This document shows positions 15,228 to 64,000 of a stretch of DNA of 64,000 nucleotides, piece after piece. Source of the DNA: Pristiophorus japonicus (taxonomy: Eukaryota); NCBI RefSeq assembly GCF_044704955.1, contig NC_091987.1, positions 148,552,001 through 148,616,000 of the forward strand. The letters are read 5' to 3'. The first letter of the stretch is position 1. Each line of letters begins with the position of its first letter. Both the position numbers and the translations under genes were made by a program. The notes under the pieces are model-generated. The model ran no database searches, had not been told where the DNA came from, and worked only from the letters and a program-made list of their open reading frames with translations.

Positions 15228-15252
15228 CAGTTTGATACTGCACATGACAGGA

Positions 15253-23856: not shown

Positions 23857-23923
23857 GGGTCTGGACCTTAAGAAAGCTCACTCTGTCCCTAGTGCTGAGA
23901 GACCGCTTCACATCCCAGTCACA

Positions 23924-24032
23924 GGGAGTTCCCGTGGAGACCATGGGGCGGCGCTGACTGATGGGGCTGTCCAATAATAAATAGACTCAGCATGATGTCA
24001 TTGTTACCAGGCAGAACAACCGGGGAATGTTT
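23924..24032 (-). promoter_or_regulatory. Distal MHC-type X1-X2-Y module with kappaB site and GC box
   Basis: Minus strand: X1 CCTGGTAACAA (24001-24011), X2 TGACATC (23994-24000), 18 bp, Y ATTGG (23971-23975). Also GGGCGG at 23946, kappaB GGGAGTTCCC at 23924-23933, and weak S-like AAACAT at 24027-24032. Confidence 0.65.
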
Positions 24033-27000
24033 AAATTGTCACCCAGCTCGTTTCATGGAAAGAGATAAAACAGGGAAAGGGAGTGAATGAATGAATGAAT
24101 GAAACAGGGAGAGAGAGTGAGAGTCAGTGAGTGAGTGAGAAAGAGTGAGAGAGAGAGTGAAACCCTGACAGTGAGAGCGAGAGAGTGAAACAGGGACGGG
24201 GGGACTGAGAAAGTGAAACAGGGAGAGAGAGAGAGTGAAACAGGGAGAGGGAGAGTGAAAGAGAGTGAGTGAGAGTTAGACGGAGAGAGTGAGAGAGGGC
24301 AAGAGAGTATGAGAGTGAAACAGTGAGAGTGAAAGAGAGAGAGAGATAGAGCGTGTGAAACAGGGACAGTGAGAGAGAGTGAAACAAGGAGGGTGAGAGA
24401 AAGTAAACAGTGAGTGAGAGTGAGAGAGTGAAACAGGGAGAGTGAGAGAGAGAGTGAGAAAGTGAAACAGGGCGAGAGAGAGTGAAACAGGGAGAGTGAA
24501 AGAGAGAGTGAGAGAAAGTGAAACAATGAGAGTGAGAGAGTGAAACAGGGAGAGTGAGAGAGAGAGAGAGAGAGTTAAAGGGAGAGAGTGAGAAAGTGAA
24601 ACAGGGCGAGAGAGAGAGAGTGAGAGAGAGTAAAACAGAGTGAGTGAGGGCGAGTGAAACAGGGAGAATGAGTGATAGAAAGTTAAACGGAAAGAGAGAA
24701 GGACTGAGAAAGTGAAACCGGGCAAGAGAGTGAGAGAGAGCGTGAAACAGGGAGAGTGAGAGAGAGTTAGTGAGTGAGAGTGTGAAACAGTGAGAGTGAG
24801 AGAGTAAAACAGAGAGAGAGTGAGTGAGTGAGAGTGTTAAACAGGACGAGTGAGAGTGAGAGTGAAACAGGGAGAGTGAGAGTGAGAGAGTGAAACAGGG
24901 AGAGCGAGAGTGAGAGAGAGTTAGTGAGTGAGAGGAAATGTTAAATAGGGAAAGAGTGAGAGAGAGAGAGAGTGAAACAGTGAGAGTGAGTGAAACATGG
25001 AGAGGGAGAAACAGGGAGAGTGTGAGAGTGAAACAGGGAGACGGAGAGTGAGTCTCAGAGAGAGAAGCAGGGAGAGGAAAAGAGAGAGTGAGTGAAACAT
25101 GGAGAGTGAAAGTGAGAGTAAAACAGTGAGAATGAGGGAGAGTGAAACAAGGAGAGTGAGAGAGAGTGAAACATGGAGAGTGAGAGAGAGAGAGAAAAAA
25201 AGGAGAGTGAGAGAAAAAGGGGGAGTAAGAAGAGAGTGAAACAGAGAGAGTGAGAGAGTTAAACGGAGAGTGAGACAGTGAAACAGGGCGAGAGAGTGAG
25301 AGAAACAGGGAGAGTGAGAGAGAGGGAAACAGGGCAAGTGAGAGTAAGAAGAGAGTGAAACAGGGAGAGTGAGAGAGTGAGAGTTAAACAGGGAGAGAGA
25401 GAGAGTGTGAGAGAGAAACAGGGAGAGCGAGAGAGAGGGAAACAGGGAGAGAGAGAGTGAGAGAGAGGGAAACAGGGAGAGAGAGAGAGTGAGAGAGTGA
25501 AACTGGGAGAGTGAGGGAGTGAAACAGTGAGAGTGAGTGAAACATGGAGAGGGAGAGAATGAGAGAAACAGGGAGAGAGAGAGAGAATGAAACAGGGAGA
25601 GTGAGAGTGAGAGAGTGAAACCGGGAGAGTGAGGGAGTGAAACAGTAAGAGTGAGTGAAACATGGAGAGGGAGAGAATGAGAGAAACAGGGAGAGAGAGA
25701 GAGAGAGAGTGTGAAACAGGGAGAGTGAGAACGAGAGAATAAAACAGTGAGAGTGAGAATGAGAGTGAAACAAGCAGATTGAGAGAGAGGGAAACAGGGA
25801 GAGGGAGGGGGAGAATGCGAGAGTTAAACAGGGAGAGGGAGAGTATGAGTGAGTGGAACGGGAAAGGGAGTGAGAGAGATTGAAATAGGGAGAGAGAGAG
25901 TGAAACAGGGAGAGTGAGAAAGCGAGGGAGAAAGAGTGAGAGTGAAACAGGGAGAGGGACAGGAAGAGAAAGTGAAACAGAGAGGGAGAGAGGGAGGGAG
26001 AGAGAGGGAGAGAAACAGCGAGAGAGGGAGAGAGTTATTGAGTGAGTGAGAGAGAGTATTAAACAGGGCGAGGGAGAGTAAGAAAGAGTGAAACAGGGTG
26101 AGAGTGAGACTTAAACAGGGAGAGATAGAGTGAGAGAGAGTGAAACAGTGAGTGTGAGTGAAATATGGAGAGAGAGAAACAGGGATAATGAAATAGTGAA
26201 ACAGAGAGAGAGTGAGCGAGTGAAACAGTGAGACGGAGAGTGAGTCTGAGAGAGAGAGAAGCAGGGAGAGTGAGAGAGAGAGTGAGTGAAACATGGAGAG
26301 TAAGAGAGAGTGAAACAGGGAGAGGGAGAGAGAGTTAGAGAGTGAGAGAGAGTGTTAAACAGGGAGAGGGTGAGAGAGAGAGAATGAGAGAAACATGGCA
26401 CGTAAGAGAGAGAGTGAAACAGGGAGAGCGAGAGAGAGTGCTTGAAACCGGGAGAGTGAAAACAGTGAGAGTGAGAGAATCAAACAGGGAAAGTGAGAGA
26501 GAGAAACAGGGAGAGGGACAGAGAGAGAGAGAGAGAGTGTGAAACAGGGAGAATGAGAGAGAGTGCGTGAAACAGGGAGAGAGTGAAACAGGAAGAGTGA
26601 GAGTGTCAAACAGGGAGAGAGGGAGAGTGAAATAGGGAGAGTGAGAGAGAGAGAGAGCAAAACAGGGAGAGGGAGAGAGAAAGTGAAACCGGGAGAGGGA
26701 GAGTGAGTGAAACACGGAGAGGGAGAGTGAGAGAGAGAATCAGGGAGAGTGAGAGATAGAGAGAGTGAAACAGTGAGAGTGAGAGTGAAACAGCAAGAGG
26801 AAGAGTGTGAAAGTGAGTGAGAGAGTGAAACAGGGAGAGAGAGTGAAACAGGGAGAATGAAAGAGAGAATCAGGGAGAGGGAGAGAGAGAGAGAGCGAGT
26901 GAAACAGGGAGAGAGAGTGAGTGAAACAGGGAGAGTGAGAGAGAGTGTGAAACAGGGAGAGTGAGAGAGAGAGTGAAACAGGGAGAGTGAGAGAGAGAGA

Positions 27001-27390
27001 GAGTGAAATGGAGAGAGAGTGAGTGAAGCAGGGAGAGTGAGAGAGTGAGAGTGAAAGAGTGAGTGAGAGTCAAACAGGGAGAGGAAGAGTGTGCGAGAGT
27101 GAAACAGGGATAAAGAGAGAGAGAGAGTGAAACGGGGAGAGTGAGAGAGAGTGAAGCAGGAAGAGTGAGAGAGTGAAACAGAGAGTGAGAATGAGAGAGC
27201 AAAACAGGGAGAGTGAGAGTGAGAGAGTGAAACAGTGAGAGTGAGAGAATCAAACAGGGAAAGGAAGAGTGCGAAAGAGAGTGAGCGAATGAAACAGGGA
27301 GAGTGACAAAGGAGAGAGTGAGAGAGCGAGAGTGAGAGAGAGAGCGAGAGTGAACCAGGGAGAGGGAGAGAGAGAGAGAGAGAGGGAAAT

Positions 27391-27425
<35 letters not shown>

Positions 27426-28278
27426 AACAGGGTGAGAGTGAAACAGGGTGAGAGAGAGAGAGTGAAACCGGGAGAGGGAGAGTGAGTGAAACACGGAGAG
27501 GGAGAGGACGAGAGAGAGAGAAACAGGGAGAGTGGGAGGAAGAGAGTTAAACAGTGAGAGTGAGAGATAGAGAGAGTGAAACAGTGAGAGTGAGAGTCAA
27601 ACAGCAAGAGGAAGAGTGCGAAAGTGAGTGAGAGTGAAACAGGGAAAGAGAGTGAAACAGGGAGGATGAAAGAGAGAAACAGGGAGAGGGAGAGAGAGAG
27701 AGAGCGAGTGAAACAGGGAGAGTGAGAGTGAGAGAGAGAGAGAGTGAAACAGGAAGAGAGTGAGAGAGAGAGGGAAATAGGGAGAGTGAGAGAGAGTGAA
27801 ACCGGGAGAGTGAGAGAGAGTGAAACCGGGAGAGTGAGAGTGAGTGAAACAGGGAGAGGGAGAGTGAGAGCGAGAGAAATAGGGAGTGAGAGTGAGTGAG
27901 TGAAACAGGAAGAGTGGGAGTGAGAGCGCAAAACAGGGAGAGAGAGAGAGAAAGTGAAAGAGTGAGTGAGAGTCAAACAGGAAGAGTGTGAGAGTGAGAT
28001 TGAAACAGGGAGTGAGAGAGAGTGAAACGGGGAGTGAGAGAGAGAGAACCAAAGAGTGGGATAGAGAGAGAGAGAGAGTGAAACAGGGAGAGAGTGAAAC
28101 ATGTAGAGAGTGCGAAAGAGAAACAGGAAGAGGAAGAAAGAGAGATAGCGAATGGAACAGGGAGAGTGAGAGAGATTGAAGCAGGGAGAGGGGGAGAGAA
28201 TGAAACAGGGTGAGTGAGAGATTGAAACAGTGGGAGAGAGAGAGAGAGACAGAGTGAAACAGAGTGAGAGAGTGAAAC

Positions 28279-28313
<35 letters not shown>

Positions 28314-30222
28314 ACCAGGGAGACGGAGAGAGATTGAAACAAGGAGAGGGAGAGTGAAAATGAGTGAAACAGGGAGAGAGAGAGAGAGAGAGAGAGTGGA
28401 ACAGGGAGAGAGGGAGAGAGTGGAACAGGGACAGTGAGAATGAAACAGGGAGTGGGAGAGTGAGAACAAGTAAAATGGAGAGATTGAATCAGGGAGAGTG
28501 AGAGAGAGAAAGAGTGAGAGATTGAAATCGGGAGAGTGAGAGTGAGAGAGAGTGAAACAGGGAGAGAGAGAGTGGGAGAGCAAAACAGGGAGAGTGAGAG
28601 AGAGAGAGTGAAAGAGTGAGTGAGAGTCAAACAGGGAGAGGAAAAGTGTGAGAGTGAGAGTGAAACAGGGATAGAGAGAGAGTGAAACATGGAGAGTGAG
28701 AGTGAGAGAGAGTGAAACAGGGAGAGAGAGTGAGTGAAGTAGGGAGAGTGAGAGAGTGAAACCGGGAGAGTGAGAGTGAGAGTGAAACAGGGAGAGAGAG
28801 TGAGTGAAGCAGGGAGAGTGAGAGAGTGTGAAACAGGGAGAGTGAGAGAGAGTGTAACAGGGAGAGTGAGAGTGGGAGAGCAAATCAGGAGAGTGAGAGA
28901 GAGTGAAAGAGTGAGTGAGAGTCAAACATGGAGAGGAAGAATGTGAGAGTGAGAGTGAAACAGGGATAGAGAGAGAGAGTGAAACAGGTAGAGTGAGAGA
29001 GAAACGGGGAGAGGGAGAGAGAGAGTGAAACAGGGAGAGGTGAGAGTGAGTGAAACGGAGAGTGAAAGAGAGAGAGAAAAACAGTGAAAGTGAGATAGGT
29101 CAAACAGGGAGAGGAAGAGTGTGAAAGAAAATGAGTGAAACAGGGAGAGTGAGAGAGAGAGTGAAACAGGGCGAGTGAGAGTGAAACAGTGAGAGTGAGA
29201 GTGAGAGAGCAACACGGATAGAGGAGGAGTGCAAAATTGAGTGAGAGAGTAAAACGGAGAGTGAGAGAGAGTGAGTGAAGCAGGGAGAGGAAGATCGAGA
29301 GAGTGAAACAGGGAGAATGAGGGTGAGAGAGAGTTAGTGAATGTGTGAGAGAGAGTGTTAAACAGAGAGAGGGTGAGAGAGTAACTGAAACAGTGAGAGT
29401 GAGTGAAACATGGAGTGGGAGAGAAAGAGAGAATAAGAGAAACAGGAAGAGTGAGAGAGTGAAACAGAGAGAGAGTGAGAGTGTGAAACAGGGAGATGGA
29501 GAGTGAGTCTGAGAGAGAGAGAGAAGCAGGGAGAGAGAGAGAGAGAGTGCATGAAACATGGAGAGGGCTACGGAGAGAGAGAGAGTGAAACTGGGAGAGG
29601 GAGGGAGAGAGTGAAACAGGGAGAGATAGAGAGAGTGAGAGATAGAGAGAGTGAGAGATAGAGAGAGTGAGAGATAGAGAGAGAGAGATAGAGAGAGAGA
29701 GAGAAAGAGAGAGTGAAACAGGGAGAGTGAGAGAGGGTGCGTGAAACAGGGAGAGAGTGAAACAGGGAGAGTGAGAGATTCAAACAAGTAGAGAGAGAGA
29801 AGCTGGAGAGTGTGAGAGAGTGTGAAATAGGGAGAGAGAGAGTGAGAAAGAGTGAATCAGGGAGAGAGAGAGAGAGAGAGCAGGGACGGTGAGAGTGACA
29901 GTGAGAGAGTGAAACCAGGAGAGTGAGAATTAAACCGGGAGAGAGTGAGAGTGAGAGAGAGTGAAACAGGGAGAGTGAGAGAATGAGTGAGTGAGTGAAA
30001 CTGGGAGAGGGAGAGTGAGTCAGAGTAAAACAGGGAGGGAGAGTGAACCAGGGAGAGTGAGAGAGAATGAAACAGGGAGAGAGAGTGAAACAGGGAGACT
30101 GAGAGAGTGAGTGAGTGGAACAGTGAGAGTGAGAGTGAGAGAGTGAAGCAGGGAGAGAAAGAGTGCGGAAGAGAGTGAGAGTGAGTGAAACAGGGAGAAT
30201 GAGAGAAAGAGGGAGAAAGCAA

Positions 30223-30253
<31 letters not shown>

Positions 30254-31496
30254 TGAGAGTGAACCATGGAGAGAGAGTGAGAGAGATTGAAATAGGGAGA
30301 GGGAGTGAGAAAGAGTGAAACAAGGGTAGAGAGAGAGAACAAGAAAGAGAGAGAAAGAATGAGATGAAACATGGAAAGGGAGAGAAATAGAGAATGAGAG
30401 AAACAGGGAGAGTGAGTGAGAGAGAGAGAGTGTGAAACAGGGAGAGGGAGAATGAGAGAGAGTGAAATAGAGAGTGTGAGTGAAATATGCAGAGGAAGAG
30501 ATAGAGAGAATGAGAGAAACAGGGAGAGTGAGAGAGTGAAACATGGAGAGTGAAACAGTGAGAGTGAGAGAGTCAAATAGGGAGAGTGAGAGAGAGAAAC
30601 AGGGAGAGGAGGAGAGAGCGAGAGTGAGAGAGAGAAACAGAGAGTGAAACAGAGAAAGTGAGAGTGAAACAGGGAGAGGGAGAGTGAAAAAGAGTGAAAC
30701 AGAGAGAGAGAGAGAGAGAGAGAGAAGCAAGGAGAGTGAGAGTGTGAAACCGGGAGAGTGAGAGTGAAACTGGGAGAGTGAGAGTGTCAAACAGGGAAAG
30801 TGTGAGAGAGAAACAGGGAGAGAGAGAGAGCGAGAAAGAGAGTGAAACAGGAAGAGTGAGAGAGGGTGCGTGAAACAGGGAGAGAGTGAAACAGGGAGAG
30901 TGAGAGAGTCAAACAGGTTGAGAGAGAGAGAAGCAGGAGAGTGAGAGTGAAAATGGAGAGTGAGAGAGAGAGAATGAAACAGGGAGAGGAAGAAAGAGTG
31001 AAACAGGGAGAATGCGAGTGTGAAACGGAGAGTGAGAGTGAGAGTGAGAGAGCAACACAGGGAGAATGAGGGAGAGAGAGAGAGAGAGAGCCAGGGAGAG
31101 GGAGAGTGAGAGAGATTGAAAGAGAGAGAGGGGGAGAGAGGGAAACAGGGAGAGTGAGAGAAAGAGAAAGAGAGTGTGAAACAGGGTGAGAGTGTACCAG
31201 GGTGAGTGAGAGATTGAAATCGGGAGAGTGAGAGTGAGAGAGAGTGAAACAGGGAGAGAGAGTGAGTGAAGCAGGGAGAGTGAGAGTGGGAGAGCAAAAT
31301 AGTGAGAGTGAGAGAGAGAGAGAGATAGAGAGAGTGAAAGAGTGAGTGAGAGTCAAACAGAGAGAGGAAGAGTGTGAGAGTGAGAGTGAAACAGGGATAG
31401 AGAGAGAGAGTGAAACAGGGAGAGGGGGAGAGAGGGAAACGGAGAGTGAGAGAGAGAGAAAGAGCGTGTGAAACAGGGTGAGAGGGTGAGTGAGAC

Positions 31497-31528
<32 letters not shown>

Positions 31529-32669
31529 TGAAAGAGTGAGTGAGAGTCAAACAGGGAGAGGAAGAGTGTGAGAGTGAATGAAACAGGGATATAGAGAGCG
31601 TGAAACAGGGAGAGTGAGAGAGAGAGTGTGAAGCAGGGAGTGTGAGAGAGAGTTAAACGGAGAGAGCGAGTGAGAAAGTGAAAGAGGGCGAGAGAGAGAG
31701 TGAAACAGGGTGAGTGAGAGTAAGAGAGTGAAACCGGGAGAGTGAGAAAGTGAAACAGGGAGAGGGAGAAAGAGTTAGTGAGTGAGAGGGAGTATTAAAC
31801 AGGGAGAGGGTGAGAGAGAGAGAGAGAGTGAAACAGTGAGAGTGTGAAAAGAGAGAGTGAGAGAGTGAAACAGGGAGAGTGAGAGAGTGAAACAGGGAGA
31901 GTGAGAGAATAAAACAGTGAGAGTGAGAATGAGAGAGAGTGCAACAGGGAGATCGAGAATGCGAGCGTGAAACAGGGAGTAGGAGAGAGAGAGAGTGAAA
32001 CAGGGAGTGGGAGAGAGAGTGAGAGTGAAACTGGGAGAGTGAAAGTGACAGAGAGTTAGTGAGTGAGAGTGTTAAGCAGGGAGAGAGTGAAAGAGAGAGT
32101 GAAACAGTAGAGTAAGTGAAACAGGGAGAGGGAGAGAAAGGGGGAGGGAGAGAGAGAGAGAGAGAAAGAGAGTGAAACAGGGAGAGTGAGAGAGAGTGCG
32201 TGAAACAGGGAGAAAGTGAAACAGGGAGAGTGAGAGAGGGAGAGAGAAGCAAGAGAGTGAGAGTGAGAGTGAAACAGGGAGAGTGAGAGAGAGAGAATGA
32301 AACAGGGAGAGGGAGAGAGTTAGTGAAACCGGGAGAGGGAGAGTGAATGAAACATGGAGAGGGAGAGGGAGAGAGAGAGAGAGAGAAACAGGGAGAGTGG
32401 GAGAGGGAGAGAGAGAAACAGGGAGAGTGGGAGAGGGAGTGTGAAACAGGGAGAGGGAGAGTGAGAGAGAGTGAAATAGAGAGTGTGAGTGAAACATGGA
32501 GAGGGAGAGATAGAAAGAATGAGTGAAGCAGGGAGAGGGAGAGAATGTGTCAAACAGGGAGCGTGAGAGAATGAAACAGGGAGTGTGAGAGTGAGTGAAA
32601 CAGGGAGAGTGAGAGAGAGAGAGAGAGTGAAACAGGGTGAGGGAGAGTGAGAGAGAGTGAAATAGAGAG

Positions 32670-35600
32670 TGTGAGTGAAACATGGAGAGTGAGAGATGGA
32701 GAGAATGAGAGAAACAGGGAGAGTGAGAGAGTGAAACAGGGTGAGGGAGAGAGTTAGTGAAACCGGGAGAGGAAGAGTGAGTGAAACACGGAGAGATAGA
32801 GGGAGAGAGTTAAACAGGGAGAGTGGGAGAGTGATAGAGTGAAATCGGGAGTGAGAGGAAGAGTGAAACATAGCGAGTGAGAGATAGAGAGAGTGAAACA
32901 GTGAGAGTGAGAGTCAAACAGGGAGCGGAAGAGTGCTAAACAGAGTGAGAGAGTGAAACAGGGAGAGAGAGTGAAACGGAGAATGAGAGAAACAGGGAGA
33001 GGGAGAGAGAGAAAGAGAGAGAGTGAATGAAACAGGGAGAGTGAGAGAGAGAGAGAGTGAAACAGGGAGAGTGAGAGTGTGAGAGAGTGAAATAGGGAGA
33101 GGAAGAGTGAGAAAGAGTGAATTGGGAGCGAGAGAGCGAGAGCAGGGAGGGTGAGAGTGACAGTGAGAGTGTGAAATCGGGAGAGTGAGAATGAAACCGG
33201 GAGATTGAGAGTGGGAGAGTGGGAGAGTGTGAGTGAAAGCGGGAGAGTGAGAGAGAGAGTGAAACTGGAAAAGGGAGAGTAAGAAAGTGAGTGAGTGAAT
33301 GAGTGAGTGAAACCGGGAGAGGGAGAGTGGGTGAGAGTGAAACAGGGAGGGAGAGTGAGAGTGAGTGAAACAGAGAGAGAGACTGAAACAGGGAGAGTGA
33401 GAGAGTGAGTGAGTGAAACAGGGAGAGTGAGAGAGTCAAACAGTGAGAGGAAGAATGCGAAAGAGAGTGAGAGATTGAAACAGGGAGTGAGAACAAGCGA
33501 GAGAGAGAGGGAGAATGAGAGAGATTGAAACAGGGAGAGAGAGAGAGGGAGAGTGAGAAAGAGTGAAACGGAATGTGAGAGAGAGAGTGAAACAGTGAGA
33601 GTGAGAGAGAGAGCGAGAGAGAGAGGGAGAGTGAGAGAGAGTGAAACAGTGAGAGTGAGTGAAATATGGAGAGGGAGAGACATAGAGAATGAGAGAAACA
33701 GGGACAGTGAGAGAGTGAAACAGTAAGAGGAAGAGTGCGAAAGAGAATGAGAGAGCGAAACAGGAAGAGTGAGAGGGAGAGAGTGAAACAGTGAGAGTGA
33801 GAGAGAGAAACAGGGAGAGGGAGAGAGAGAAACAGGGAGAGGGAGAGTGTGAAACAGTGAGAGTAAGAGAGAGAAACAGGGAGAGGGGGGAGAGAGAAAG
33901 AGAGTGCAACAGGGAGAGTGAGAGTGAAACAGAGAGAGTGAGAGTGAGTGTGAAACAGGGAAAGAGAGAGAGAGAGGAGCAGGGAGGTTGAGGGTGACAG
34001 TGAGTGAGTGAAATTGGGAGAGGGAGAGTGAGTGAGCGAAACAGGGAGAGTGATTGTGAGGGAGAGTATAATAGGGAGTGTGAGAGAGAGTGAAACAGGG
34101 TGAGAGGGAGTGAAACAGGGAGAGTGAGAGGGAGAGTGAGTGAAACAGGGAGAGTCAGAGAGAGAATGAGTGAAGCAGGGAAATGGAGAGAGAGAATGAG
34201 TGAAGCAGGGAGATGGAGCGTGAGAGAGCGTCAAACAGGGAGAGTGAGAGTGAGAGAGTGAAACAGGGAGAGTGAGAGAGTGAAACAGGGAGAGGGAGAG
34301 AGTTAGTGAAACTGGGAGAGAATGAGAGAGTGAAATAGGGAGAGAGAGTGAAACGGAGAATGAGAGAAACAGGGAGAGGGAGAGAGAGAGAGAGTGAAAC
34401 AGTGAGAGTATGAGAGTCAAACAGGGAGAGGAAGAGTGCGAAAGAGAATGAGAGAGTGAAACAGGGAGAGTGAGAAAGAGAGCAAGAGAGAGAGGGAGAA
34501 TGAGAGAGATTGAAACAGGGAGAGAGAGAGAGAGGGAGAGTGAGAAAGAGTGAAACGGAGTGTGTGAGAGAGAGTGAAACAGTGAGAGTGAGCGAGTCAA
34601 ACATGGAGAGGATAAGTGCGAAAGAGAGTGAGAGTGTGAAACAGGGAGAGTGAGAAAGACAGCGAGAGAGAGAGGGAGAGTGAGATAGAGTGAAACAGTG
34701 AGAGTGAGTGAAACATGGAGAGGGAGAGAAATAGAGAATGAGAGAAACAGGGAGCGTGAGAGTGAAACAGTGAGAGTGAGAATGAGTGAGAGGGAGAGAG
34801 AGAGAAACAGGGAGAGTGAGAGAGAGTGCATAAAACAAGGAGAGTGAAACAGGGAGAGGGAGAGTGAGAAAGAGTGAAACAGGGAGAAACAGAGAGAGAG
34901 AGGGAGAAGCAGGGAGAGTGACAGAGTGAGAGAGGGGGTGAAACAGGGAGAGAGAGAGTGGAATAGGGAGAGCGAGAGTCAGATAGTGAAACCGGGAGAG
35001 TGAGGGTGAAACCAGGAGAGTGAGAGTGAGAGTGAAATAGGGAGTGTGAGTGAAACATGGAGAGTGAGAGATGGAGAGAATGAGAGAAACAGGGAGAGTG
35101 AGAGAGTGAAACAGGGTGAGGGAGAGAGTTAGTGAAACCGGGAGAGGAAGAGTGAGTGAAACACGGAGAGATAGAGGGAGAGAGTTAAACAGGGAGAGTG
35201 GGAGAGTGATAGAGTGAAATCGGGAGTGAGAGGAAGAGTGAAACATAGCGAGTGAGAGATAGAGAGAGTGAAACAGTGAGAGTGAGAGTCAAACAGGGAG
35301 CGGAAGAGTGCTAAACAGAGTGAGAGAGTGAAACAGGGAGAGAGAGTGAAACGGAGAATGAGAGAAACAGGGAGAGGGAGAGAGAGAAAGAGAGAGAGTG
35401 AATGAAACAGGGAGAGTGAGAGAGAGAGAGAGTGAAACAGGGAGAGTGAGAGTGTGAGAGAGTGAAATAGGGAGAGGAAGAGTGAGAAAGAGTGAATTGG
35501 GAGCGAGAGAGCGAGAGCAGGGAGGGTGAGAGTGACAGTGAGAGTGTGAAATCGGGAGAGTGAGAATGAAACCGGGAGATTGAGAGTGGGAGAGTGGGAG

Positions 35601-43400: not shown

Positions 43401-44108
43401 GTGAGGGTGAAACCAGGAGAGTGAGAGTGAGAGTGAAAAAGGGAGCGTGAAAGGGAGAGAGTGAAACAGTGAGAATGAGAGAGTGAAACAGGGAGAGGGA
43501 GTGAAACAGGAAGAGTGAGAGAGAGAAAAAGGGAGAGGGAGAGAGAGAAAGAGAGTGCAACAGGGAGAGTGAGAGTGAAACAGGGAGAGGGAGAGTAAGT
43601 GAGTGAAACAGGGAGAGGGAGAGTGAGTGAGTGAAACCGGGAGAGTGAGGGAAACAGGGAGATTGAGAGGGAGAGAGTGAAACAGTGAGAGTGAGAGTCA
43701 AACAGGGAGAGGAAGAGTGTGAAAGAGAGTGAGAGAGTGAAACAGGGAGAGTGAAACATGGAGAATGAGAATGTAAAACAGGGAAAGGGAGCGAGAGAGA
43801 GAGAGAGAGTGAGAGAGAGAGAAAGAGAGAGTGAAGCAGGGAAAGTGAGAGAGGGTGCGTAAAACTGGGAGAGAGTAAAACAGGGAGAGTGAGAGAGTCA
43901 AACAGGGAGAGAGAGAGAGAGAAGCAGGAGAGTGAGAGTGAAACAGGGAGAGTGAGAGAGTGTGAAATAGGGAGGGAGGGAGAGAGAGAGAGCAGGGAGG
44001 GTGAGAGTGACAGTGAGAGTGTGAAACCGGGAGAGTGAGAATGAAACCGGGAGAGAGTGAGAGTGGGAGAGTGAGAGAGAGTGAAACAGGGAGAGTGAGA
44101 GAGTGAGT

Positions 44109-51700: not shown

Positions 51701-54700
51701 GAATGAGTGAAGCAGGGAGATGGAGAGTGAGAGAGCGTCAAACAGGGAGAGTGAGAGTGAGAGAGTGAAACAGGGAGAGTGAGAGAGAGGGAGAGAGAGA
51801 GAGAGAGAGAATGAAACAGGGAGAGGGAGAGAGTTAGTGAAACTGGGAGAGGAAGAGTGAGTGAAACACGGAGAGGGAGAGTGAAACAGGGAGAATGTGA
51901 AACAGGGAGAGTGGGAGTCAAACAGGGAGAGGAAGAGTGCGAAAGAGAATGAGAGAGTGAAATTGGGCGAGAGAGTGAAATGGAGAATGAGAGAAACAGG
52001 GAGAAGGAGAGAGAGTGAAACAGTGAGAGTGAGTCAAACAGGGAGAGGAAGAGTGCAAAAGAGAATGAGAGAGTGAAACAGGGAGAGTGAGAGGGAGAGT
52101 GAGAAAGAGTGAAACAGAGTGTGAGAGAGAGAGTGAAATAGTGAGAGTGAGAGAGTCAAACAGGGAGAGGAAGAGTGCGAAAGAGAATGAGAGAGTGAAA
52201 CAGGGAGAGAGAGTGAAACAGGAAGAGTGAGAAAGAGAAACAGGGAGAGGGAGAGCGAGAGAGTGCAACATGGAGAGTGAGATTGAAACAGGGAGGAAGA
52301 GTGAGAGCGTGAAACAGGGAGATTAAGAGAGAGTGAAACAGGGAGAGAGGGAGAGTGAGTGAAACAGAGAGAGTCAGAGAGAGAATGAGTGAAGCAGGGA
52401 GATGGAGAGAGAGAGAATGAGTAAAGCAGGGAGATGGAGAGTGAGAGAGCGTCAAACATGGAGAGTGAGAGTGAGAGAGTGAAACAGGGAGAGTGAGAGA
52501 GAGGGTGAGTGAGAGAGAGAGAGCGAATGAAACAGGGAGAGGGAGAGAGTTAGTGAAACCGGGAGAGGAAGAGTGAGTGAAACACAGAGAGGGAGAGTGA
52601 AACAGGGAGAATGTGAAACAGGGAGAGTGGGAGTCAAACAGGGAGAGGAAGAGTGCGAAAGAGAATGAGAGAGTGAAATTGTGCGAGAGAGTGAAATGGA
52701 GAATGAGAGAAACAGGGAGAAGGAGAGAGAGTGAAACAGTGAGAGTGAGAGAGTCAAACATGGAGAGTAAGAGTGCGAAAGAGAGTGAGAGTGTGAAACA
52801 GGGAGAGTGAGAAAGAGAGCGAGAGAGAGGGAGAGTGAGAGAGAGTAAAACAGTGAGAGTGAGTGAAACATGGAGAAGGAGAGAAAAGAGAATGAGAGAA
52901 ACAGGAAGCGTGAGAGTGAAACAGTGAGAGTGAGAATGAGAGAGAGAGAGGAAGGGAGAGAGAGAGAAACAGGGAGAGTGAGAGAGAATGCATGAAACAA
53001 GGAGAGTGAAACAGGGAGTGGGAGAGTGAAAAAAGGTGAAACAGGGAGAAAGAGAGTGAGCAAGGGATTGAAACAGGGAGAGAGAGAGAGAAAGAGTGGA
53101 ACAGGGAGAGCGAGAGTGAGATGGTGAAACCAGGAGAGTGAGAGTGAAACTAGGAGAATGAGACTGAGAGTGAAAAAGGGAGCGTGAGAGGGAGAGAGTG
53201 AAATAGTGACAGTGATTGAGTCAAACAGGGAGAGGAAGAGTGCGAAAGAGAATGAGAGAGTGAAACAGGGAGAGAGAGTGAAACAGGAAGAGTGAGAGAG
53301 AGAAACAGGGAGAGGGAGAGGGAGAGAGAGTGCAACAGGGAGAGTGAGAGTGAAACAGGGAGAGTGAGAGTGAGAGAGTGTGAAACAGGGAGAGAGAGAG
53401 AGCGAGAGGAGCAGGGAGTGTGAGGGTGACAGTGAGTGAGTGAAACTGGGAGAGGGTGAGTGAGTAGTGAAACAGGGAGAGTGAGAGTAAGGGAGAGTAA
53501 AACAGGGAAGGAGAGTGAAAGAGTGAAACAGGAAGGGTGAGAGAGAGTGAAACAGGGTGAGAAGGAGAGTGAGTGAAACAGGGAGAGTCAGAGAGAGAAT
53601 GAGTGAAGCAGAGAAAGGGAGAGTGAGAGAGAGTCAAACAGGGCGAGTGTGTGAGTGAGAGAGTGAAACAGGGAGTGTGAGAGTGAGTGAAACGGAGAGA
53701 AACAGTGAGCGTGAGAGAATCAAACAGGGAGAATGAGTGAAACAGAGAGTGAGAGAGAGTGAAACAGGGAGAATGAGAGCGTGAAACAGAGAGTGAGAGT
53801 GAGAGAGCAACATAGGGAGAGTGAGAGAGAGAGAAAGAGAGTGAAAAAGTGAGAGAGGGAGAGGAAGAGTGTAAAAGTGAGAGAGTGAAACAGGGAGAGT
53901 GAGAGAAACAGGGAGAGAGAGGGAGAGAAAACCAGGGAGAGAGAGAGTGAGAGAGATTGAAACAGAGAGAGGGGGAGAGAGGAAAATGGGGAGTGAGAGA
54001 GAGAAAAAGAGAGTGTGAAACAGGGTGAGAAACAGGGTGAGTGAGAGATTGAAATCGGGAGAGTGAGAGTGAGAGAGAGTGAAACCGGGAGAGAGAGAGT
54101 GAGAGTGGGAGAGCAAAACAGGGAGAGTGAGAGAGAGAGAGTGTAAGAGTGAGTGAGAGTCAAACAGGGAGAGGAAGAGTGTGAGAGTGATAGTGAAACA
54201 GGGATAGAGAGAGTGAAACAGGGAGAGGGGGAGAGAGGGAAACAGGGAGAGTGAGAGAGAAAGAAAGAGAGTGTGAAACAGGGTGAGAGAGTGAGTGAAA
54301 CAGGGAGAGAGAGAGTGAGTGAGAGTCAAACAGGGAGAGGAAGAGTGTGAGAGTGAGAGTGAAACAGGGATAGAGAGAGAGTGAAACGGGGAGAGTGAGA
54401 GAGAGAGTATGAAGCAGGGAGTGTGAGAGAGAGTTAAATGGAGAGAGTGATTGAGAAAGTGAAAGAGGGCGAGAGAAAGAGTGAGAGAGAATGAAACAGG
54501 GTGAGTGAGAGAGTGAAACAGGGAGAGGGAGAGAGAGTTAGCGAGTGAGAGTATTAAACAGGGAGAGGGTGAGAGAAGGTGAAAGAGAGAGAGAGAGAGA
54601 GAGAGAGTGAAACAGTGAGAGTGTGAAAAGGGAGAGTGAGAGAGTGAAACAGGGAGAGTGTGAAAATGGAGATTGAGAGAATAAAACAGTGAGAGTGAGA

Positions 54701-57700
54701 ATGGGAGAGATTGAAACAGGGAGAGGGAGATCGAGAATGCAAGAGTGAAACAGAGAGTGGGAGAGAGAGAGAGTGAAACAGGGAGTGGGAGGGAGAGGGA
54801 GAGTGAGAGTGAAACTGGGAGAGTGAAAGTGACAGAGAGTTAGTGAGTGAGTGAGAGAGAGAATGAAATAGGGAGAGGGAGCGAGTTAGTGAAACCGGGA
54901 GAGGGAGAGTGAATGAAACACGGAGAGGGAGAGGGAGAGAGATAGAGAAACAGGGAGAGTGGGAGAGTGATAGATTGAAACCGGGAGAGAGAGGGAAACA
55001 GGGAGAGTGAGAGATAGAGAGAGTGAAACAGTGAGAGTGAGAGTCAAACAGGGAGAGGAAGAGTGCGAAAGAGAGTGAGAGAGTGAAACAGGGAGAGTGA
55101 AACATGGAGAATGAGAATGTAAAACAGGGAAAGGGAGCGAGAGAGAGAGAGAGTGAGAGAGAGAGAAAGAGAGAGTGAAGCAGGGAAAGTGAGAGAGGGT
55201 GCGTAAAACTGGGAGAGCGTGAAACAGGGAGAGTGAGAGAGTCAAACAGGGAGAGAGAGAGAGAGAAGCAGGAGAGTGAGAGTGAAACAGGGAGAGTGAG
55301 AGAGTGTGAAATAGGGAGGAAGGGGGAGAGAGAGAGCAGGGAGGGTGAGAGTGACAGTGAGAGTGTGAAACCGGGAGAGTAAGAATGAAACCGGGAGAGA
55401 GTGAGAGTGGGAGAGTGAGAGAGAGTGAAACAGGGAGAGTGAGTGAAACCGGGAGAGAGAGAGTGAGAGTAAAACAGGGAGGGAGAATGAAACAGGGAGA
55501 GTGAGAGAGAATGAAACAGAGAGAGAGAGTGAAACAGAGACAGTGAGAGAGCGAGTGAGTGAAACAGGGAGAGTGATAGTGAGATAGTGAAGCAGGCAGA
55601 GCGAGAGAGTCAAACAGGGAGAGGAAGAGTGCGGAAAAGAGTGAGAGAGTGAAACAGGGAGAATGAGAGAAAGAGGGAGAGAGCAAGAGAGAGAGAGTGA
55701 GAGTGAACCACAGAGAGAGAGAGAGTGAGAGAGATTGAAATAGGGAAAGGGAGTGAGAAAGAGTGAAATGGGGGAGAGAGAGAGAGAGAGAGAGTGAGGT
55801 GAAACATGGAAAGGGAGAGAAATAGAGAATGAGAGAAACAGGGAGAGTGAGAGAGAGAGAGAGTGAAACAGGGTGAGGGAGAGTGAAATAGAGAGTGTGA
55901 GTGAAACATGGAGAGGGAGGAATAGAGAGAATGAGAGAAATAGGGAGAGTGAGAGTGAAACAGGCAGAGTGAAACAGTGAGAGTGAGAGAGTCAAATAGG
56001 GAGAGTGAGAGAAACAGGGAGAGGGAGAGGAAGAGAGAGAAACAGAGAGAGTGAGAGAGAATGCATGAAACAGGGAGCGTGAAACAGGGAGAGTGAGAGT
56101 GAAACAGGGAGAGGGCGAGTGAAAAAGAGTGAAACAGGGAGAGGGAAACAGGGTGAGAGAGAGAGAAGCAGGGAGAGTGAGAGAGTGAAACCGGGAGAAT
56201 GAGAATGAAACCAGGAGAGGGAGAGTGAGTGAGTGAAACAGGGAGAGGGAGAGTGAGTGAGTGAAACAGGGAGAGGGAGAGTGAGTGAGTGAAACCGGGA
56301 GAGGGAGTGAAACAGGGAGATTGAGAGGGAGAGAGTGAAACAGTGAGAGTGAGAGAGTCAAACAGGGAGAGGAAGATTGCGAAAGAGAGTGAGAGAGTGA
56401 AACAGAGAGTGAGAGCGAGCGAGAGAGAGAGAAGGAGAATGAGAGTGATTGAAACAGGGAGAGAGAGAGAGAGGGAGAGTGAGAAAGAGTGAAACGGCGT
56501 GTGAGAGAGAGAGTGAAACAGTGAGAGTGAGAGAGTCAAACATGGAGAGTAAGAGTGCGAAAGAGAGTGAGAGTGTGAAACAGGGAGAGTGAGAAAGAGA
56601 GCGAGAGAGAGGGAGAGTGAGAGAGAGTAAAACAGTGAGAGTGAGTGAAACATGGAGAGGGAGAGAAAAGAGAATGAGAGAAACAGGAAGCGTGAGAGTG
56701 AAACAGTGAGAGTGAGAATGAGAGAGAGAGAGGAAGGGAGAGAGAGAGAAACAGGGAGAGTGAGAGAGAATGCATGAAACAAGGAGAGTGAAACAGGGAG
56801 TGGGAGAGTGAAAAAAGATGAAACAGGGAGAAAGAGAGTGAGCGAGGGATTGAAACAGGGAGAGAGAGAGAGAAAGAGTGGAACAGGGAGAGCGAGAGTG
56901 AGATGGTGAAACCGGGAGAGTGAGAGTGAAACTAGGAGAATGAGACTGAGAGTGAAAAAGGGAGCGTGAGAGGGAGAGAGTGAAATAGTGACAGTGATTG
57001 AGTCAAACAGGGAGAGGAAGAGTGCGAAAGAGAATGAGAGAGTGAAACAGGGAGAGAGAGTGAAACAGGAAGAGTGAGAGAGAGAAACAGGGAGAGGGAG
57101 AGAGAGTGCAACAGGGAGAGTGAGAGTGAAACAGGGAGAGTGAGAGTGAGAGAGTGTGAAACAGGGAGAGAGAGAGAGCGAGAGGAGCAGGGAGTGTGAG
57201 GGTGACAGTGAGTGAGTGAAACTGGAAGAGGGTGAGTGAGTAGTGAAACAGGGAGAGTGAGAGTAAGGGAGAGTAAAACAGGGAAGGAGAGTGAAAGAGT
57301 GAAACAGGGAGAGTGAGAGAGAGTGAAACAGGGTGAGAGGGAGAGAGAGTGAAACAGGGAGAGTCAGAGAGAGAATGAGTGAAGCAGAGAAAGGGAGAGT
57401 GTGTGAGTGAGAGTGAAACAGGGAGTGTGAGAGTGAGTGAAACGGAGAGAGAGAAACAGTGAGCGTGAGAGAATCAAACAGGGAGAGTGAGTGAAACAGA
57501 GAGTGAGAGAGAGTGAAACAGGGAGAATGAGAGCGTGAAACAGAGAGTGAGAGAGCAACATAGGGAGAGTGAGAGAGAGAGAAAGAGAGTGAAAAAGTGA
57601 GAGTGAGAGAGTCAAACAGGGAGAGGAAGAGTGTAAAAGTGAGAGAGTGAAACAGGGTGAGTGAGAGAAACAGGGAGAGAGAGGGAGAGAAAACCAGGGA

Positions 57701-58252
57701 GAGAGAGAGTGAGAGAGATTGAAACAGAGAGAGGGGGAGAGAGGAAAACGGGGAGTGAGAGAGAGAAAAAGAGAGTGTGAAACAGGGTGAGAAACAGGGT
57801 GAGTGAGAGATTGAAATCGGGAGAGTGAGAGTGAGAGAGAGTGAAACCGGGAGAGAGAGAGTGAGAGTGGGAGAGCAAAACAGGGAGAGTGAGAGAGAGA
57901 GAGTGTAAGAGTGAGTGAGAGTCAAACAGGGAGAGGAAGATTGTGAGAGTGATAGTGAAACAGGGATAGAGAGAGTGAAACAGGGAGAGGGGGAGAGAGG
58001 GAAACAGGGAGAGTGAGAGAGAAAGAAAGAGAGTGTGAAACAGGGTGAGAGAGAGAGTGAAACGGGGAGAGTGAGAGAGAGAGTGTGAAGCAGGGAGTGT
58101 GAGAGAGAGTTAAATGGAGAGAGTGAGTGAGAAAGTGAAAGAGGGCGAGAGAAAGAGAATGAAACAGGGTGAGTGAGAGAGTGAAACAGGGAGAGGGAGA
58201 GAGAGTTAGCGAGTGAGAGAGAGTATTAAACAGGGAGAGGGTGAGAGAGGGT

Positions 58253-58287
<35 letters not shown>

Positions 58288-60513
58288 ACAGTGAGAGTGT
58301 GAAAATGGAGAGTGAGAGAATAAAACTGAGAGTGAGAATGAGAGAGATTGAAACAGGGAGAGAGAGATCGAGAATACAAGAGTGAAACAGAGAGTGGGAG
58401 AGAGAGAGAGTGAAACAGGGAGTGGGAGAGAGAGAGAGTGAGAGGGAGAGGGAGAGTGAGAGTGAAACTGGGAGAGTGAAAGTGACAGAGTTAGTAAGTG
58501 AGTGAGAGAGAGAATGAAATAGGGAGAGGGAGCGAGTTAGTGAAACCGGGAGAGGGAGAGTGAATGAAACACGGAGAGGGAGAGGGAGAGAGCGAGAGAA
58601 ACAGGGAGAGTGGGAGAGTGATAGATTGAAACCGGGAGAGAGAGGGAAACAGGGAGAGTGAGAGATAGAGAGAGTGAAACAGTGAGAGTGAGAGTCAAAC
58701 AGGGAGAGGAAGAGTGCGAAAGAGAGTGAGAGAGTGAAACAGGGAGAGTGAAACATGGAGAATGAGAATGTAAAACAGGGAAAGGGAGCGAGAGAGAGAG
58801 AGAGTGAGAGAGAGAGAAAGAGAGAGTGAAGCAGGGAAAGTGAGAGAGGGTGCGTAAAACTGGGAGAGCATGAAACAGGGAGAGTGAGAGAGTCAAACAG
58901 GGAGAGAGAGAGAGAGAAGCAGGAGAGTGAGAGTGAAACAGGGAGAGTGAGAGAGTGTGAAATAGGGAGGAAGGGGAGAGAGAGAGCAGGGAGGGTGAGA
59001 GTGACAGTGAGAGTGTGAAACCGGGAGAGTGAGAATGAAACCGGGAGAGAGTGAGAGTGGGAGAGTGAGAGAGAGTGAAACAGGGAGAGTGAGAGAGTGA
59101 GTGAAACCAGGAGAGAGAGAGTGAGAGTAAAACAGGGAGGGAGAATGAAACAGGGAGAGTGAGAGAGAATGAAACAGAGAGAGAGAGTGAAACAGAGAGA
59201 GTGAGAGAGCGAGTGAGTGAAACAGGGAGAGTGATAGTGAGATAGTGAAGCAGGCAGAGCGAGAGAGTCAAACAGGGAGAGGAAGAGTGCGGAAAAGAGT
59301 GAGAGAGTGAAACAGGGAGAATGAGAGCGAGAGAGTGAGAGTGAACCACAGAGAGAGAGAGTGAGAGAGATTGAAATAGGGAAAGGGAGTGAGAAAGAGT
59401 GAAATGGGGGAGAGAGAGAGAGAGAGAGAGAGAGAGTGAGGTGAAACATGGAAAGGGAGAGAAATAGAGAATGAGAGAAACAGGGAGAGTGAGAGAGAGA
59501 GAGAGTGAAACAGGGTGAGGGAGAGTGAAATAGAGAGTGTGAGTGAAACATGGAGAGGGAGGAATAGAGAGAATGAGAGAAATAGGGAGAGTGAGAGTGA
59601 AACAGGCAGAGTGAAACAGTGAGAGTGAGAGAGTCAAATAGGGAGAGTGAGAGAAACAGGGAGAGGGAGAGGAAGAGAGAGAAACAGAGAGAGTGAGAGA
59701 GAATGCATGAAACAGGGAGCGTGAAACAGGGAGAGGGCGAGTGAAAAAGAGTGAAACAGGGAGAGGGAAACGGTGAGAGAGAGAGAAGCAGGGAGAGTGA
59801 GAGAGTGAAACCGGGAGAGTGAGAATGAAACCAGGAAAGTGAGAGTGAGAGTGAAGCAGGGAGAGGGAGAGGGAGTGAGTGAAACAGGGAGAGGGAGAGT
59901 GAGTGAGTGAAACCGGGAGAGGGAGTGAAACAGGGAGATTGAGAGGGAGAGAGTGAAACAGTGAGAGTGAGAGAGTCAAACAGGGAGAGGAAGAGTGCGA
60001 AAAAGAGTGAGAGAGTGAAACAGAGAGTGAGAGCGAGCGAGAGAGAGAGGAGAATGAGAGCGATTGAAACAGGGAGAGAGAGAGAGAGGGAGAGTGAGAA
60101 AGAGTGAAACGGAGTGTGAGAGAGAGAGTGAAACAGTGAGAGTGTGAGAGTCAAACATGGAGAGGAAGAGTGCGAGAGAGTGAGAGTGTGAAACAGGGAG
60201 AGTGAGATCGAGAGTGAGAGTGTGGGAGAGTAAAACAGGGAGGGAGAGTGAGAGAGTGAAACAGGGAGAGTGAGAGAGTGAAACAGGGAGAGTGAGGGAG
60301 AGTAAAACAGGGAGGGAGAGTAAGAGAGTGAAACAGGGAGAGTGAGAGAGAGTGAAACAGGGAGAGAGGGAGAGTGAGTGAAACAGGGAGAGTCAGTGAG
60401 AGAATGAGTGAAGCAGGGAGATGGAGAGAGAGAGAATGAGTGAAGCAGGGAGATGGAGAGTGAGAGAGCGTCAAACAGGGAGAGTGAGAGTGAGAGAGTG
60501 AAACAGGGAGAGT

Positions 60514-60545
<32 letters not shown>

Positions 60546-61522
60546 ATGAAACAGGGAGAGTTAGTGAAACTGGGAGAGGAAGAGTGAGTGAAACACGGAG
60601 AGGGAGAGGGAGAGGGAGAGTGAAACAGGGAGAATGTGAAACAGGGAGAGTGGGAGTCAAACAGGGAGAGGAAGAGTGCGAAAGAGAATGAGAGAGTGAA
60701 ATTGGGCGAGAGAGTGAAATGGAGAATGAGAGAAACAGGGAGAAGGGGAGAGAGTGAAACAGTGAGAGTGAGTCAAACAGGGAGAGGAAGAGTGCGAAAG
60801 AGAATGAGAGAGTGAAACAGGGAGAGTGAGAGGGAGAGTGAGAAAGAGTGAAACGGAGTGTGAGAGAGAGAGTGAAACAATGAGAGTGAGAGAGTCAAAC
60901 ATGGAGAGTAAGAGTGCGAAAGAGAGTGAGAGTGTGAAACAGGGAGAGTGAGAAAGAGAGCGAGAGAGAGGGAGAGTGAGAGAGAGTAAAACAGTGAGAG
61001 TGAGTGAAACATGGAGAGGGAGAGAAAAGAGAATGAGAGAAACAGGGAGCGTGAGAGTGAAACAGAGAGTGAGAATGAGAGAGAGAGAGGGAGGGAGAGA
61101 GAGAGAAACAGGGAGAGTGAGAGAGAATGCATGAAACAAGGAGAGTGAAACAGGGAGTGGGAGAGTGAGAAAGAGTGAAACAGGGAGAAAGAGAGTGAGC
61201 GAGGGATTGAAACAGGGAGAGAGAGAGAGATAGAGTGGAACAGGGAGAACGAGAGTGAGATGGTGAAACCGGGAGAGTGAGAGTGAAACTAGGAGAATGA
61301 GACTGAGAGTGAAAAAGGGAGAGTGAGAGAGTGAAATAGTGAGAGTGAGAGAGTCAAACAGGGAGAGGAAGAGTGCGAAAGAGAATGAGAGAGTGAAACA
61401 GGGAGAGAGAGTGAAACAGGAAGAGTGAGAGAGAGGAACAGGGAGAGGGAGAGGGAGAGAGAGTACAACAGGGAGAGTGAGAGTGAAACAGGGAGAGTGA
61501 GAGTGAGAGAGTGTGAAACAGG

Positions 61523-61554
<32 letters not shown>

Positions 61555-62372
61555 AGCAGGGAGGGTGAGCGTGACAGTGAGTGAGTGAAACTGGGAGAGG
61601 GAGAGTGAGTGAGTAAAACAGGGAGAGTGAGAGTAAGGGAGAGTAAAACAGGGAGGTAGAGTGAGAGAGTGAAACAGGGAGAGTGAGAGAGAGTGAAACA
61701 GGGTGAGAGGGAGAGTGAGTGAAACAGGGAGAGTCAGAGAGAGAATGAGTGAAACAGGGAGAGGGAGAGTGAGAGAGAGTGAAACAGGGAGAGTGAGAGT
61801 GAGAGTGAAACAGGGAGTGTGAGAGTGAGTGAAACAGGGAGTGAGAGAGAGAAACAGTGAGAGTGGGAAAGTCAAACAGGGAGAGTGAATGAAACGGAGA
61901 GTGAGAGAGAGAGTGAAACAGGGAGAATGAGAGCGTGAAACAGAGAGTGAGAGTGAGAGAGCAACAGAGGGTGAGTGAGAGAGAGAGAGAGAAAGAGAGT
62001 GAAAACGTGAGAGTCAAACAGGGAGAGGAAGAGTGTAAAAGTGAGAGAGTGAAACAGGGAGAGAGTGAGAGAAACAGGGAGAGAGAGAGAGAACCAGGGA
62101 GAGGGAGAGTGAGAGTGATTGAAACAGAGAGAGGGGGAGAGAGGGAAACAGGAGGAGTGAGAGAGAGAGAAAGAGAGTGTGAAACAGTGTGAGTGTGAAA
62201 CAGGGTGAGTGACAGATTGAAATCGGGTGAGTGAGAGTGAGAGAGAGTGAAACAGGGAGAGAGAGAGTGAGAGCAAAACAGGGAGAGTGAGAGAGAGAGA
62301 GAGTGAAAGAGTGAGTGAGAGTCAAACAGGAAGAGGAAGAGTGTGAGAGTGAGAGTGAAACAGGGATAGAGA

Positions 62373-63618: not shown

Positions 63619-63689
63619 TCCAGCTCGGTTGGCGCTGCTCTCTGGGGACCCGGGGCACGGCAGCGCCCCGGGGAGTGATGAAGTCTTCC

Positions 63690-63994: not shown

Positions 63995-64000
63995 TGGGGG

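What the first reader, a model, noticed from the sequence alone, without database searches (positions are those of the whole stretch)
24060..62372. Best candidate for a new system: a 38-kb satellite of ISRE-like units starting where the module's ISRE would sit
Seen: the array begins ~30 bp upstream of the distal module. Its core GAGAGTGAAAC is one base from the ISRE/IRF core GAAAGTGAAAC and has the same orientation as the proximal ISRE. Exact GAAAGTGAAAC copies occur at 24209, 24458, 24514, 24592 and 24708 (five in ~500 bp) but look sparse deeper in (e.g. 25968, 26679, 31746, 38056). Established: IRFs bind GAAANNGAAA, and an ISRE lies just 5' of SXY in class I promoters. Inference: an amplified array of IRF half-sites acting as a copy-number-variable enhancer, sink or boundary for a non-classical class I gene. 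Caveat: it may be a generic GA-rich satellite that happens to lie here.
Basis: partly seen in the sequence, partly recalled or inferred. Interest (0 to 1): 0.7.

Follow-up and report, generated by a model that had tools for sequence, protein, structure and literature searches.

The report
Satellite grown beside shark MHC enhancer
A GA-rich repeat that is about 200 bases long beside two immune-display (MHC class I) genes of a shark spans 4 to 126 thousand bases beside three duplicated copies on another chromosome; it likely grew in place as a passenger next to a likely distant control box, and only its first 700 bases carry enough true interferon-factor sites to be worth testing.

Summary
The array is real and larger than reported. 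It runs about 126 kb, past the window's end, and 1027 of 1045 genome matches to a 17-base unit lie in one 0.66-Mb class I cluster. It abuts an X–Y (SXY-type) module found at five loci, all upstream of class I sequences. On the MHC chromosome the module carries a 0.2-kb GA tract without any ISRE; in three duplicates elsewhere the tract is 3.7, 5.0 and 126 kb.

Against an amplified ISRE enhancer: the ISRE-making G>A is the rarest of five G>A changes, half-site density equals flanking DNA, the nearest ISRE is 198 bp from the X box (35 bp in the proximal promoter), and a 54-kb sister array amplified with no module or class I gene.

For it: the five-copy edge cluster is the most clustered of 54 variants (p about 0.001), both short sister arrays keep 3–4 edge ISREs, and the gene appears spliced.

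Verdict: a locus-specific satellite, likely neutral in bulk, beside a conserved distal module. The scan has unchecked notes of similar expansions elsewhere in this genome, none of this array.

The parts
75..274 (.). 200-N stretch lying where the alpha-2 exon would be
   Evidence: no alpha-2 exon in flanking letters or elsewhere at high identity
1124..1384 (-). MHC class I alpha-1 exon
   Evidence: Pfam MHC_I E 1.2e-14; contigs of three runs cover it to its borders and run on unlike the genome
14820..14868 (-). class I leader exon, coding part
   Evidence: sequence; 90-99% identical to leaders of four other class I genes
14869..15230 (-). proximal promoter: ISRE 15217-15226, X box 15168-15181, first Y box mutated, second Y and CCAAT kept
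   Evidence: alignment with three paralogues; coordinates
23968..24062 (-). distal X-Y (SXY-type) module: X box 23998-24011, ATTGG 23971-23975
   Evidence: five copies in the genome, all upstream of class I sequences; 19 bp from the 14-base X box to the Y box
24209..24717 (+). edge cluster of five exact GAAAGTGAAAC (ISRE-consensus) units
   Evidence: 3 and 4 such units in the first 850 bp of the two short sister arrays
24060..44112 (+). GA-rich satellite, first block; variable 14-60 bp units around GTGAAACAGG, median core spacing 30 bp; 2.36-kb tandem duplication inside
44113..45773 (-). 5'-truncated CR1-type LINE inserted in the array (family label from recalled sequence features)
   Evidence: sequence; 85-90% identical to many dispersed copies
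45774..62372 (+). GA-rich satellite, second block; no exact GAAAGTGAAAC
62373..64000 (.). start of a 2.8-kb element with terminal direct repeats inserted in the array; four copies in the full array, three within a 10.1-kb triplicated block; the satellite resumes behind it outside the window

Best explanation
The array is a locus-specific satellite that likely grew in place from a 0.2-kb GA-rich tract abutting a conserved distal X-Y module of shark class I genes, and its bulk is likely a passenger with no regulatory role. Shown: the module with a short tract lies 7 and 21 kb upstream of two class I promoters on the chromosome that carries MHC class II alpha; three duplicates on C11 carry the same module followed by 3.7, 5.0 and 126 kb of satellite; one short tract contains the satellite's unit. 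Inferred: after a class I segment was copied to C11, slippage lengthened the tract and unequal exchange multiplied kilobase blocks (2.4, 4.4, 6.9 and 10.1 kb), carrying inserted retroelements along. The module likely binds RFX, CREB/ATF and NF-Y as a distal enhancer (by analogy, untested). The ISRE-type units at the module edge are likely copies of an old edge variant; they may add IRF input to the module (about 0.3), but the units further in would not.
For: Five module copies only, all upstream of class I sequences; X and Y boxes and their spacing kept while the spacer changes. C19 tracts of about 0.2 kb share a far border, and one holds the unit GAGTGAAACAGGGAGAGTGAGA. 1027 of 1045 genome matches of the 17-mer and 218 of 222 of the 27-mer lie in C11:148.10-148.76 Mb. 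Higher-order duplications and TE inserts. A 54-kb sister array shares our array's far flank at 89-94% identity, has its own block periods, and has no module or class I exon within 95 kb to its left. ISRE variant is the rarest G>A change; half-site density equals background. C19 tracts hold no GAAANNGAAA. Four other variants also have their densest cluster in the first 1.3 kb (5 of the top 10 of 54 clusters), so the edge is a distinct subdomain. An unrelated 25-kb satellite lies between the arrays and class I introns are filled with simple repeats.
Against: The ISRE variant is the most clustered of 54 single-base variants (permutation p 0.001, about 0.05 after correction) and all three module-linked arrays keep 3-5 copies at the edge although the surrounding units are reshuffled. 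GAAANNGAAA is five times denser in the array than in flanking DNA (0.57 against 0.11 per kb). TGAAAC is reported as an IRF9-preferred 6-mer and GAGA half-sites as enriched at IRF5 sites (PMC6954429 passages), so the common unit may be a weak site, present 1815 times as GAGANNGAAA. The neighbouring gene appears transcribed and spliced, so selection on its regulation is possible. The two short arrays end at a CR1-like element, so their small size may reflect truncation. One genome only.
Confidence: 0.63

Rival explanations
1. The whole array is a low-affinity IRF landing pad: thousands of GAGA-NN-GAAA units plus scattered exact ISREs would concentrate IRFs near the X-Y module, so array length would tune or titrate interferon induction of the class I gene.
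For: Class I-specific location; edge cluster significant and kept in three arrays; 14 AAAGTGAAAGTG sites in the full array; IRF5/IRF9 tolerate such half-sites; repeats can bind factors weakly (bioRxiv 2022.05.24.493321 abstract); gene appears spliced.
Against: ISRE variant rarest of five G>A changes; half-sites not enriched. [quoted passage not shown] For MAX, the effect of flanking AG/CT repeats saturated after about 40 nt. MHC-linked tracts have no ISRE. The orphan array amplified without a gene.
Confidence: 0.12
2. The array matters, but as chromatin or DNA structure: a long purine-strand satellite would form heterochromatin or triplex/R-loop structures that dampen the adjacent module or insulate the transposed gene.
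For: 85% purine on one strand, 119 purine runs of 20 or more bases, 7 G4-type motifs in 36.7 kb; direct contact with the module; large satellites silencing neighbours is established knowledge (recalled).
Against: No chromatin data. The gene beside the longest array appears transcribed. The 54-kb sister array has no class I gene to act on.
Confidence: 0.15
3. A generic GA-rich satellite family, widespread in the genome, happens to lie here.
For: A 320-bp piece of the same repeat sits inside a CR1 on C9; the 10-base core GTGAAACAGG recurs in an unrelated 30-bp minisatellite on C4; this genome has many long satellites (unchecked notes).
Against: 98% of 17-mer matches are in one cluster; six other single-match sites read were not arrays of this unit; the seed tract is in the same position at two MHC-linked paralogues.
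Confidence: 0.05
4. The length is inflated by assembly error in a low-complexity repeat.
For: Near-identical blocks (97.5% for the triplicated insert); no raw long reads available.
Against: No N inside the array; units are diverged (about 60% matches by TRF); TE inserts and unique flanks are coherent, and a diverged sister array exists.
Confidence: 0.05

Closest known systems
Distal XL / SXY-like enhancers of the human MHC class II region (PMC7866136 passages; Krawczyk 2004 seen only as a reference entry)
   Same: An X-Y module away from the promoter, with X and Y boxes in fixed order and spacing.
   Different: Here it lies upstream of class I genes of a shark, has a GA tract or satellite on its 5' side, and binding of RFX or CIITA/NLRC5 is untested.
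NLRC5-bound SXY module with upstream ISRE in mammalian class I promoters (PMC4374748 passages)
   Same: The proximal promoter has ISRE then X then Y; the distal module's X-Y gap (19 bp by my box limits) is near the reported 20-22 bp.
   Different: Reported modules are promoter-proximal; the distal module has no ISRE at the matching distance (198 against 35 bp) and its S box was not identified.
Locus-specific satellites grown from short tandem repeats by slippage and unequal exchange, with higher-order repeats (general knowledge, recalled)
   Same: Short variable monomer, kilobase higher-order blocks, TE inserts copied with blocks, distinct edge, independent homogenisation of sister arrays.
   Different: The seed is identifiable and sits against a conserved immune regulatory module, giving a 0.2 / 3.7 / 5.0 / 126 kb series in one genome.
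Short tandem repeats that tune factor binding next to motifs (bioRxiv 2022.05.24.493321; abstract and section 14)
   Same: A simple repeat flanking a factor-binding module and resembling a weak motif.
   Different: Those effects act over tens of bases; they could apply to the 0.2-kb tract or the edge, not to 100 kb.

Membership tests
ISRE / IRF-dimer enhancer array | Units match GAAANNGAAA | tested here: not met
   340 common cores lack the 5' GAAA; 21 matches in 36.7 kb, within Markov expectation of 12-27
ISRE / IRF-dimer enhancer array | Half-sites AANNGAAA enriched | tested here: not met
   27 observed against 52-81 expected; 0.74 per kb against 0.70 in 325 kb of flanking DNA
ISRE / IRF-dimer enhancer array | Local cluster of consensus ISREs beside the module | tested here: met
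   5 in the first 700 bp, p 0.001 or less; 3 and 4 in sister edges; descent from one variant not excluded
ISRE / IRF-dimer enhancer array | ISRE conserved in homologous tracts | tested here: not met
   0 of 2 MHC-linked tracts hold GAAANNGAAA
ISRE / IRF-dimer enhancer array | IRF binding and interferon response | not testable with these tools
   no binding or reporter data
SXY module | X and Y boxes in fixed order and spacing | tested here: met
   same order and gap in 5 of 5 copies; pattern gave 7 hits in the fetched regions, 0 in 1.06 Mb read backwards; X-box likeness rests on a recalled consensus
SXY module | S box within 16 bp of X | tested here: inconclusive
   an invariant block lies 5' of X but no S-box matrix was available; the logos are in figures not held
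SXY module | Bound by RFX/CREB/NF-Y and NLRC5 or CIITA | not testable with these tools
   no ChIP data
Locus-specific satellite DNA | Head-to-tail array of tens of kb with higher-order repeats | tested here: met
   110 kb of units; block periods 2.36, 4.4, 6.9, 10.1 kb
Locus-specific satellite DNA | Confined to few loci | tested here: met
   1027 of 1045 matches in 0.66 Mb
MHC class I gene | Leader, alpha-1, alpha-2, alpha-3 exons | tested here: inconclusive
   leader, alpha-1 and alpha-3 present; alpha-2 absent but a 200-N stretch lies at its place

The most novel reading that the evidence does not exclude
A GA tract beside a distal class I enhancer acquired true ISREs at its edge and expanded into a length-variable IRF landing pad, turning a non-interferon distal module into an interferon-tuned one for class I genes that left the MHC: a satellite acting as a rheostat of immune gene expression.
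Probability: 0.12. Interest if true: 0.8.

Novelty: new member of a known kind. Interest (0 to 1): 0.38.

Why it matters
The five loci give a graded natural series (0.2, 0.2, 3.7, 5.0, 126 kb) of one repeat next to one conserved module, so whether a satellite changes the activity of an adjacent enhancer is directly testable. The side results may matter more to shark immunologists: a distal X-Y module conserved upstream of class I genes, and apparently transcribed class I genes off the MHC chromosome, where a 2023 survey reported none in elasmobranchs (PMC10751288, section 9). If the array proves inert, it is an ordinary example of satellite birth in a repeat-prone genome.

Tried and rejected
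Protein-coding array: + strand has no ORF of 110 codons or more outside the CR1 and end inserts; - strand open frames are low-complexity Ser/Leu/His runs and were not pursued. Expression search: no RNA holder listed by record. Module as a transcribed first exon: contigs of X1, X3 and X4 gave no cover of 23850-24075 while the DNA-like run X2 did; a part without cover proves nothing. Leader-to-alpha-1 joint was not among the joints shown (table cut). Pseudogene status of the window gene: first inferred from the missing alpha-2 exon, then withdrawn because of the 200-N stretch. Module near two other intron-containing class I genes (C19:57.16 and 54.67 Mb): not found in 110 kb and 100 kb read, so 4 of 6 class I genes with a proximal promoter have it. 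Two further exact 16-base X-box matches on C1 and C7 were not read and may be chance (that search's backward control hit a common repeat and is uninformative). The loose two-core pattern was swamped by an unrelated C4 minisatellite and was not used for counts. Origin from a CR1 end: rejected because the unit is confined to one cluster and present in the C19 tract. Literature searches listed no paper on a shark class I distal module or this satellite; the library lacks most subscription papers. Place look-up of earlier findings gave none.
Full report
Observation. The stretch 24060-62372 is a GA-rich, strand-biased satellite of variable 14-60 bp units built around GTGAAACAGG. The limits do not hold. 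A 1.66-kb CR1-type insert splits the array, and its apparent right end is an inserted element with terminal direct repeats. In the genome the array runs from C11:148,576,157 to 148,702,480, about 126 kb, of which 110 kb is satellite.

The gene. A class I gene lies on the minus strand: leader at 14820-14868 and alpha-1 at 1124-1384, alpha-3 1.5 kb outside the window. A UniRef protein identical over alpha-1 carries a Pristiophorus (sawshark) label. Contigs of three runs of unrecorded kind cover alpha-1 to its borders with 0-1 differences and run on unlike the genome, which I read as spliced RNA (inference). No alpha-2 exon is present, but a 200-N stretch lies at its place, so loss is unresolved. 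The neighbouring paralogue has a 13-residue deletion in alpha-3, and a third copy shows only alpha-3, again near an N stretch. Class II alpha and many class I-type exons lie on C19, so C19 is likely the MHC chromosome and the C11 trio lies outside it (the second class II alpha hit, on C6, was not read).

The module. Two searches found five copies of the distal module: three on C11 (97-100%) and two on C19 (84-88%). Four lie 7-21 kb upstream of a class I proximal promoter in the gene's orientation; the fifth precedes the alpha-3-only copy. The X box, the ATTGG box and their gap are kept while the spacer varies. Two other intron-containing class I genes lack it in 100-110 kb read. Distal X-like and SXY-like enhancers are known in the human class II region (PMC7866136 passages); SXY spacing is from PMC4374748 passages.

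Origin of the array. On C19 each module is followed on its 5' side by about 0.2 kb of GA-rich tract with a shared far border, and one tract holds the satellite unit itself. On C11 the same position holds 3.7, 5.0 and 126 kb. Of 1045 genome matches to a 17-base unit, 1027 lie in C11:148.10-148.76 Mb; for a 27-mer, 218 of 222. Seven outlying sites were read: one is a 320-bp piece of the repeat inside a CR1 on C9, six are not arrays of this unit. The long array grew by tandem blocks of 2.36, 4.4, 6.9 and 10.1 kb, the last copying an inserted element three times. A fourth array of 54 kb shares our array's far flank at 89-94% identity, has its own block periods, starts at a CR1 end, and has no module or class I exon nearby. 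Amplification therefore does not need the gene, unless it preceded the loss of the module.

The ISRE question, against. In the full array the G>A change that makes the ISRE occurs 19 times, against 82, 45, 69 and 38 at the four other G positions of the 13-mer. GAAANNGAAA (21) is within Markov expectation and AANNGAAA (27) is below it; half-site density equals that of 325 kb of flanking DNA. Neither C19 tract holds GAAANNGAAA. The nearest ISRE is 198 bp from the distal X box, against 35 bp in the proximal promoter. The orphan array has the higher ISRE density of the two long arrays and five copies at its far end. IRF3/5/7 prefer two GAAA half-sites 2 bp apart (PMC5861432 passages).

The ISRE question, for. 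The edge cluster is significant and is the most clustered of 54 single-base variants tested, p 0.001 before and about 0.05 after correction. The two short arrays keep 3 and 4 ISRE units in their first 850 bp and have 2.3 and 1.4 per kb overall; in them position 3 is the commonest or joint commonest G>A change of the 13-mer. GAAANNGAAA is five times denser than in flanking DNA. TGAAAC and GAGA half-sites are tolerated by IRF9 and IRF5 (PMC6954429 passages). However, many edge copies share one context across the three arrays, so they are not independent, and four other variants also cluster in the first 1.3 kb, as expected of an old, less homogenised edge. Repeat effects on factor binding were reported to saturate within about 40 nt in one tested case (bioRxiv 2022.05.24.493321, section 14).

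Mechanism and verdict. Shown: position, size, homology series, block structure, motif counts. Inferred: in-place growth by slippage and unequal exchange after a class I segment was copied off the MHC; enhancer function of the module; neutrality of the bulk (0.63). The edge may add IRF input (about 0.3). A length-tuned IRF pad is 0.12, a chromatin effect 0.15. Papers were seen as passages or single sections as stated; figures with the SXY logos were not held and supplements were not opened, which leaves the S box untested. Searches listed nothing on this module or satellite. Earlier scan notes describe similar expansions elsewhere; they are unchecked and were read after my reading was formed. 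Interest 0.38; a new member of a known kind.

Noticed in passing
window 75-274 and G000:C11:148,550,234-148,553,384: The window gene shows no alpha-2 exon; a 200-N stretch sits at its place. The database model P0001 joins alpha-1 to alpha-3 directly.
   Followed up: partly
window 15130-15145; paralogue C11:148,440,3xx: The first Y box of the proximal promoter is mutated in both C11 genes relative to C19 paralogues; the distal module keeps its Y box.
   Followed up: partly
G000:C11:148.36-148.57 Mb: Three class I copies, two as an inverted pair, lie off the chromosome that carries class II alpha; at least one appears spliced. PMC10751288 section 9 reported no elasmobranch class Ib genes outside the MHC.
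   Followed up: partly
G000:C3:316.6-319.3 Mb: Nine class I matches in long open frames (419-777 codons); the one read is intronless, full length and preceded by part of a proximal promoter split by an insert.
   Followed up: partly
G000:C19:54,716,706 (-): A different X-Y match with the same spacing 41 kb upstream of the class I gene closest to nurse shark class I; may belong to another gene.
   Followed up: partly
L110 (G000:C9:32,235,860-32,236,180): A 320-bp piece of this satellite inserted inside a CR1-type element.
   Followed up: no
G000:C11:148,244,502-148,269,917: An unrelated 25-kb satellite of a 22-bp G-rich unit between the arrays.
   Followed up: no
G000:C4:162.477 Mb and 164.085 Mb: A 30-bp minisatellite sharing the core GTGAAACAGG.
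   Followed up: no
G000:C19:56.607 Mb and 57.161 Mb: Two MHC-linked class I genes are broken: frameshifts in alpha-3 and a stop in alpha-2; the first still keeps the distal module and tract.
   Followed up: no
window 44107-44125: The CR1 insert joins the array through its short tail repeat, which resembles the satellite's GAAACA core; possible microhomology at insertion.
   Followed up: no
window 7344-11570 and 4181-5234: An LTR retroelement with broken frames sits inside a Harbinger-like transposase region in intron 1 (labels from recalled protein features).
   Followed up: no
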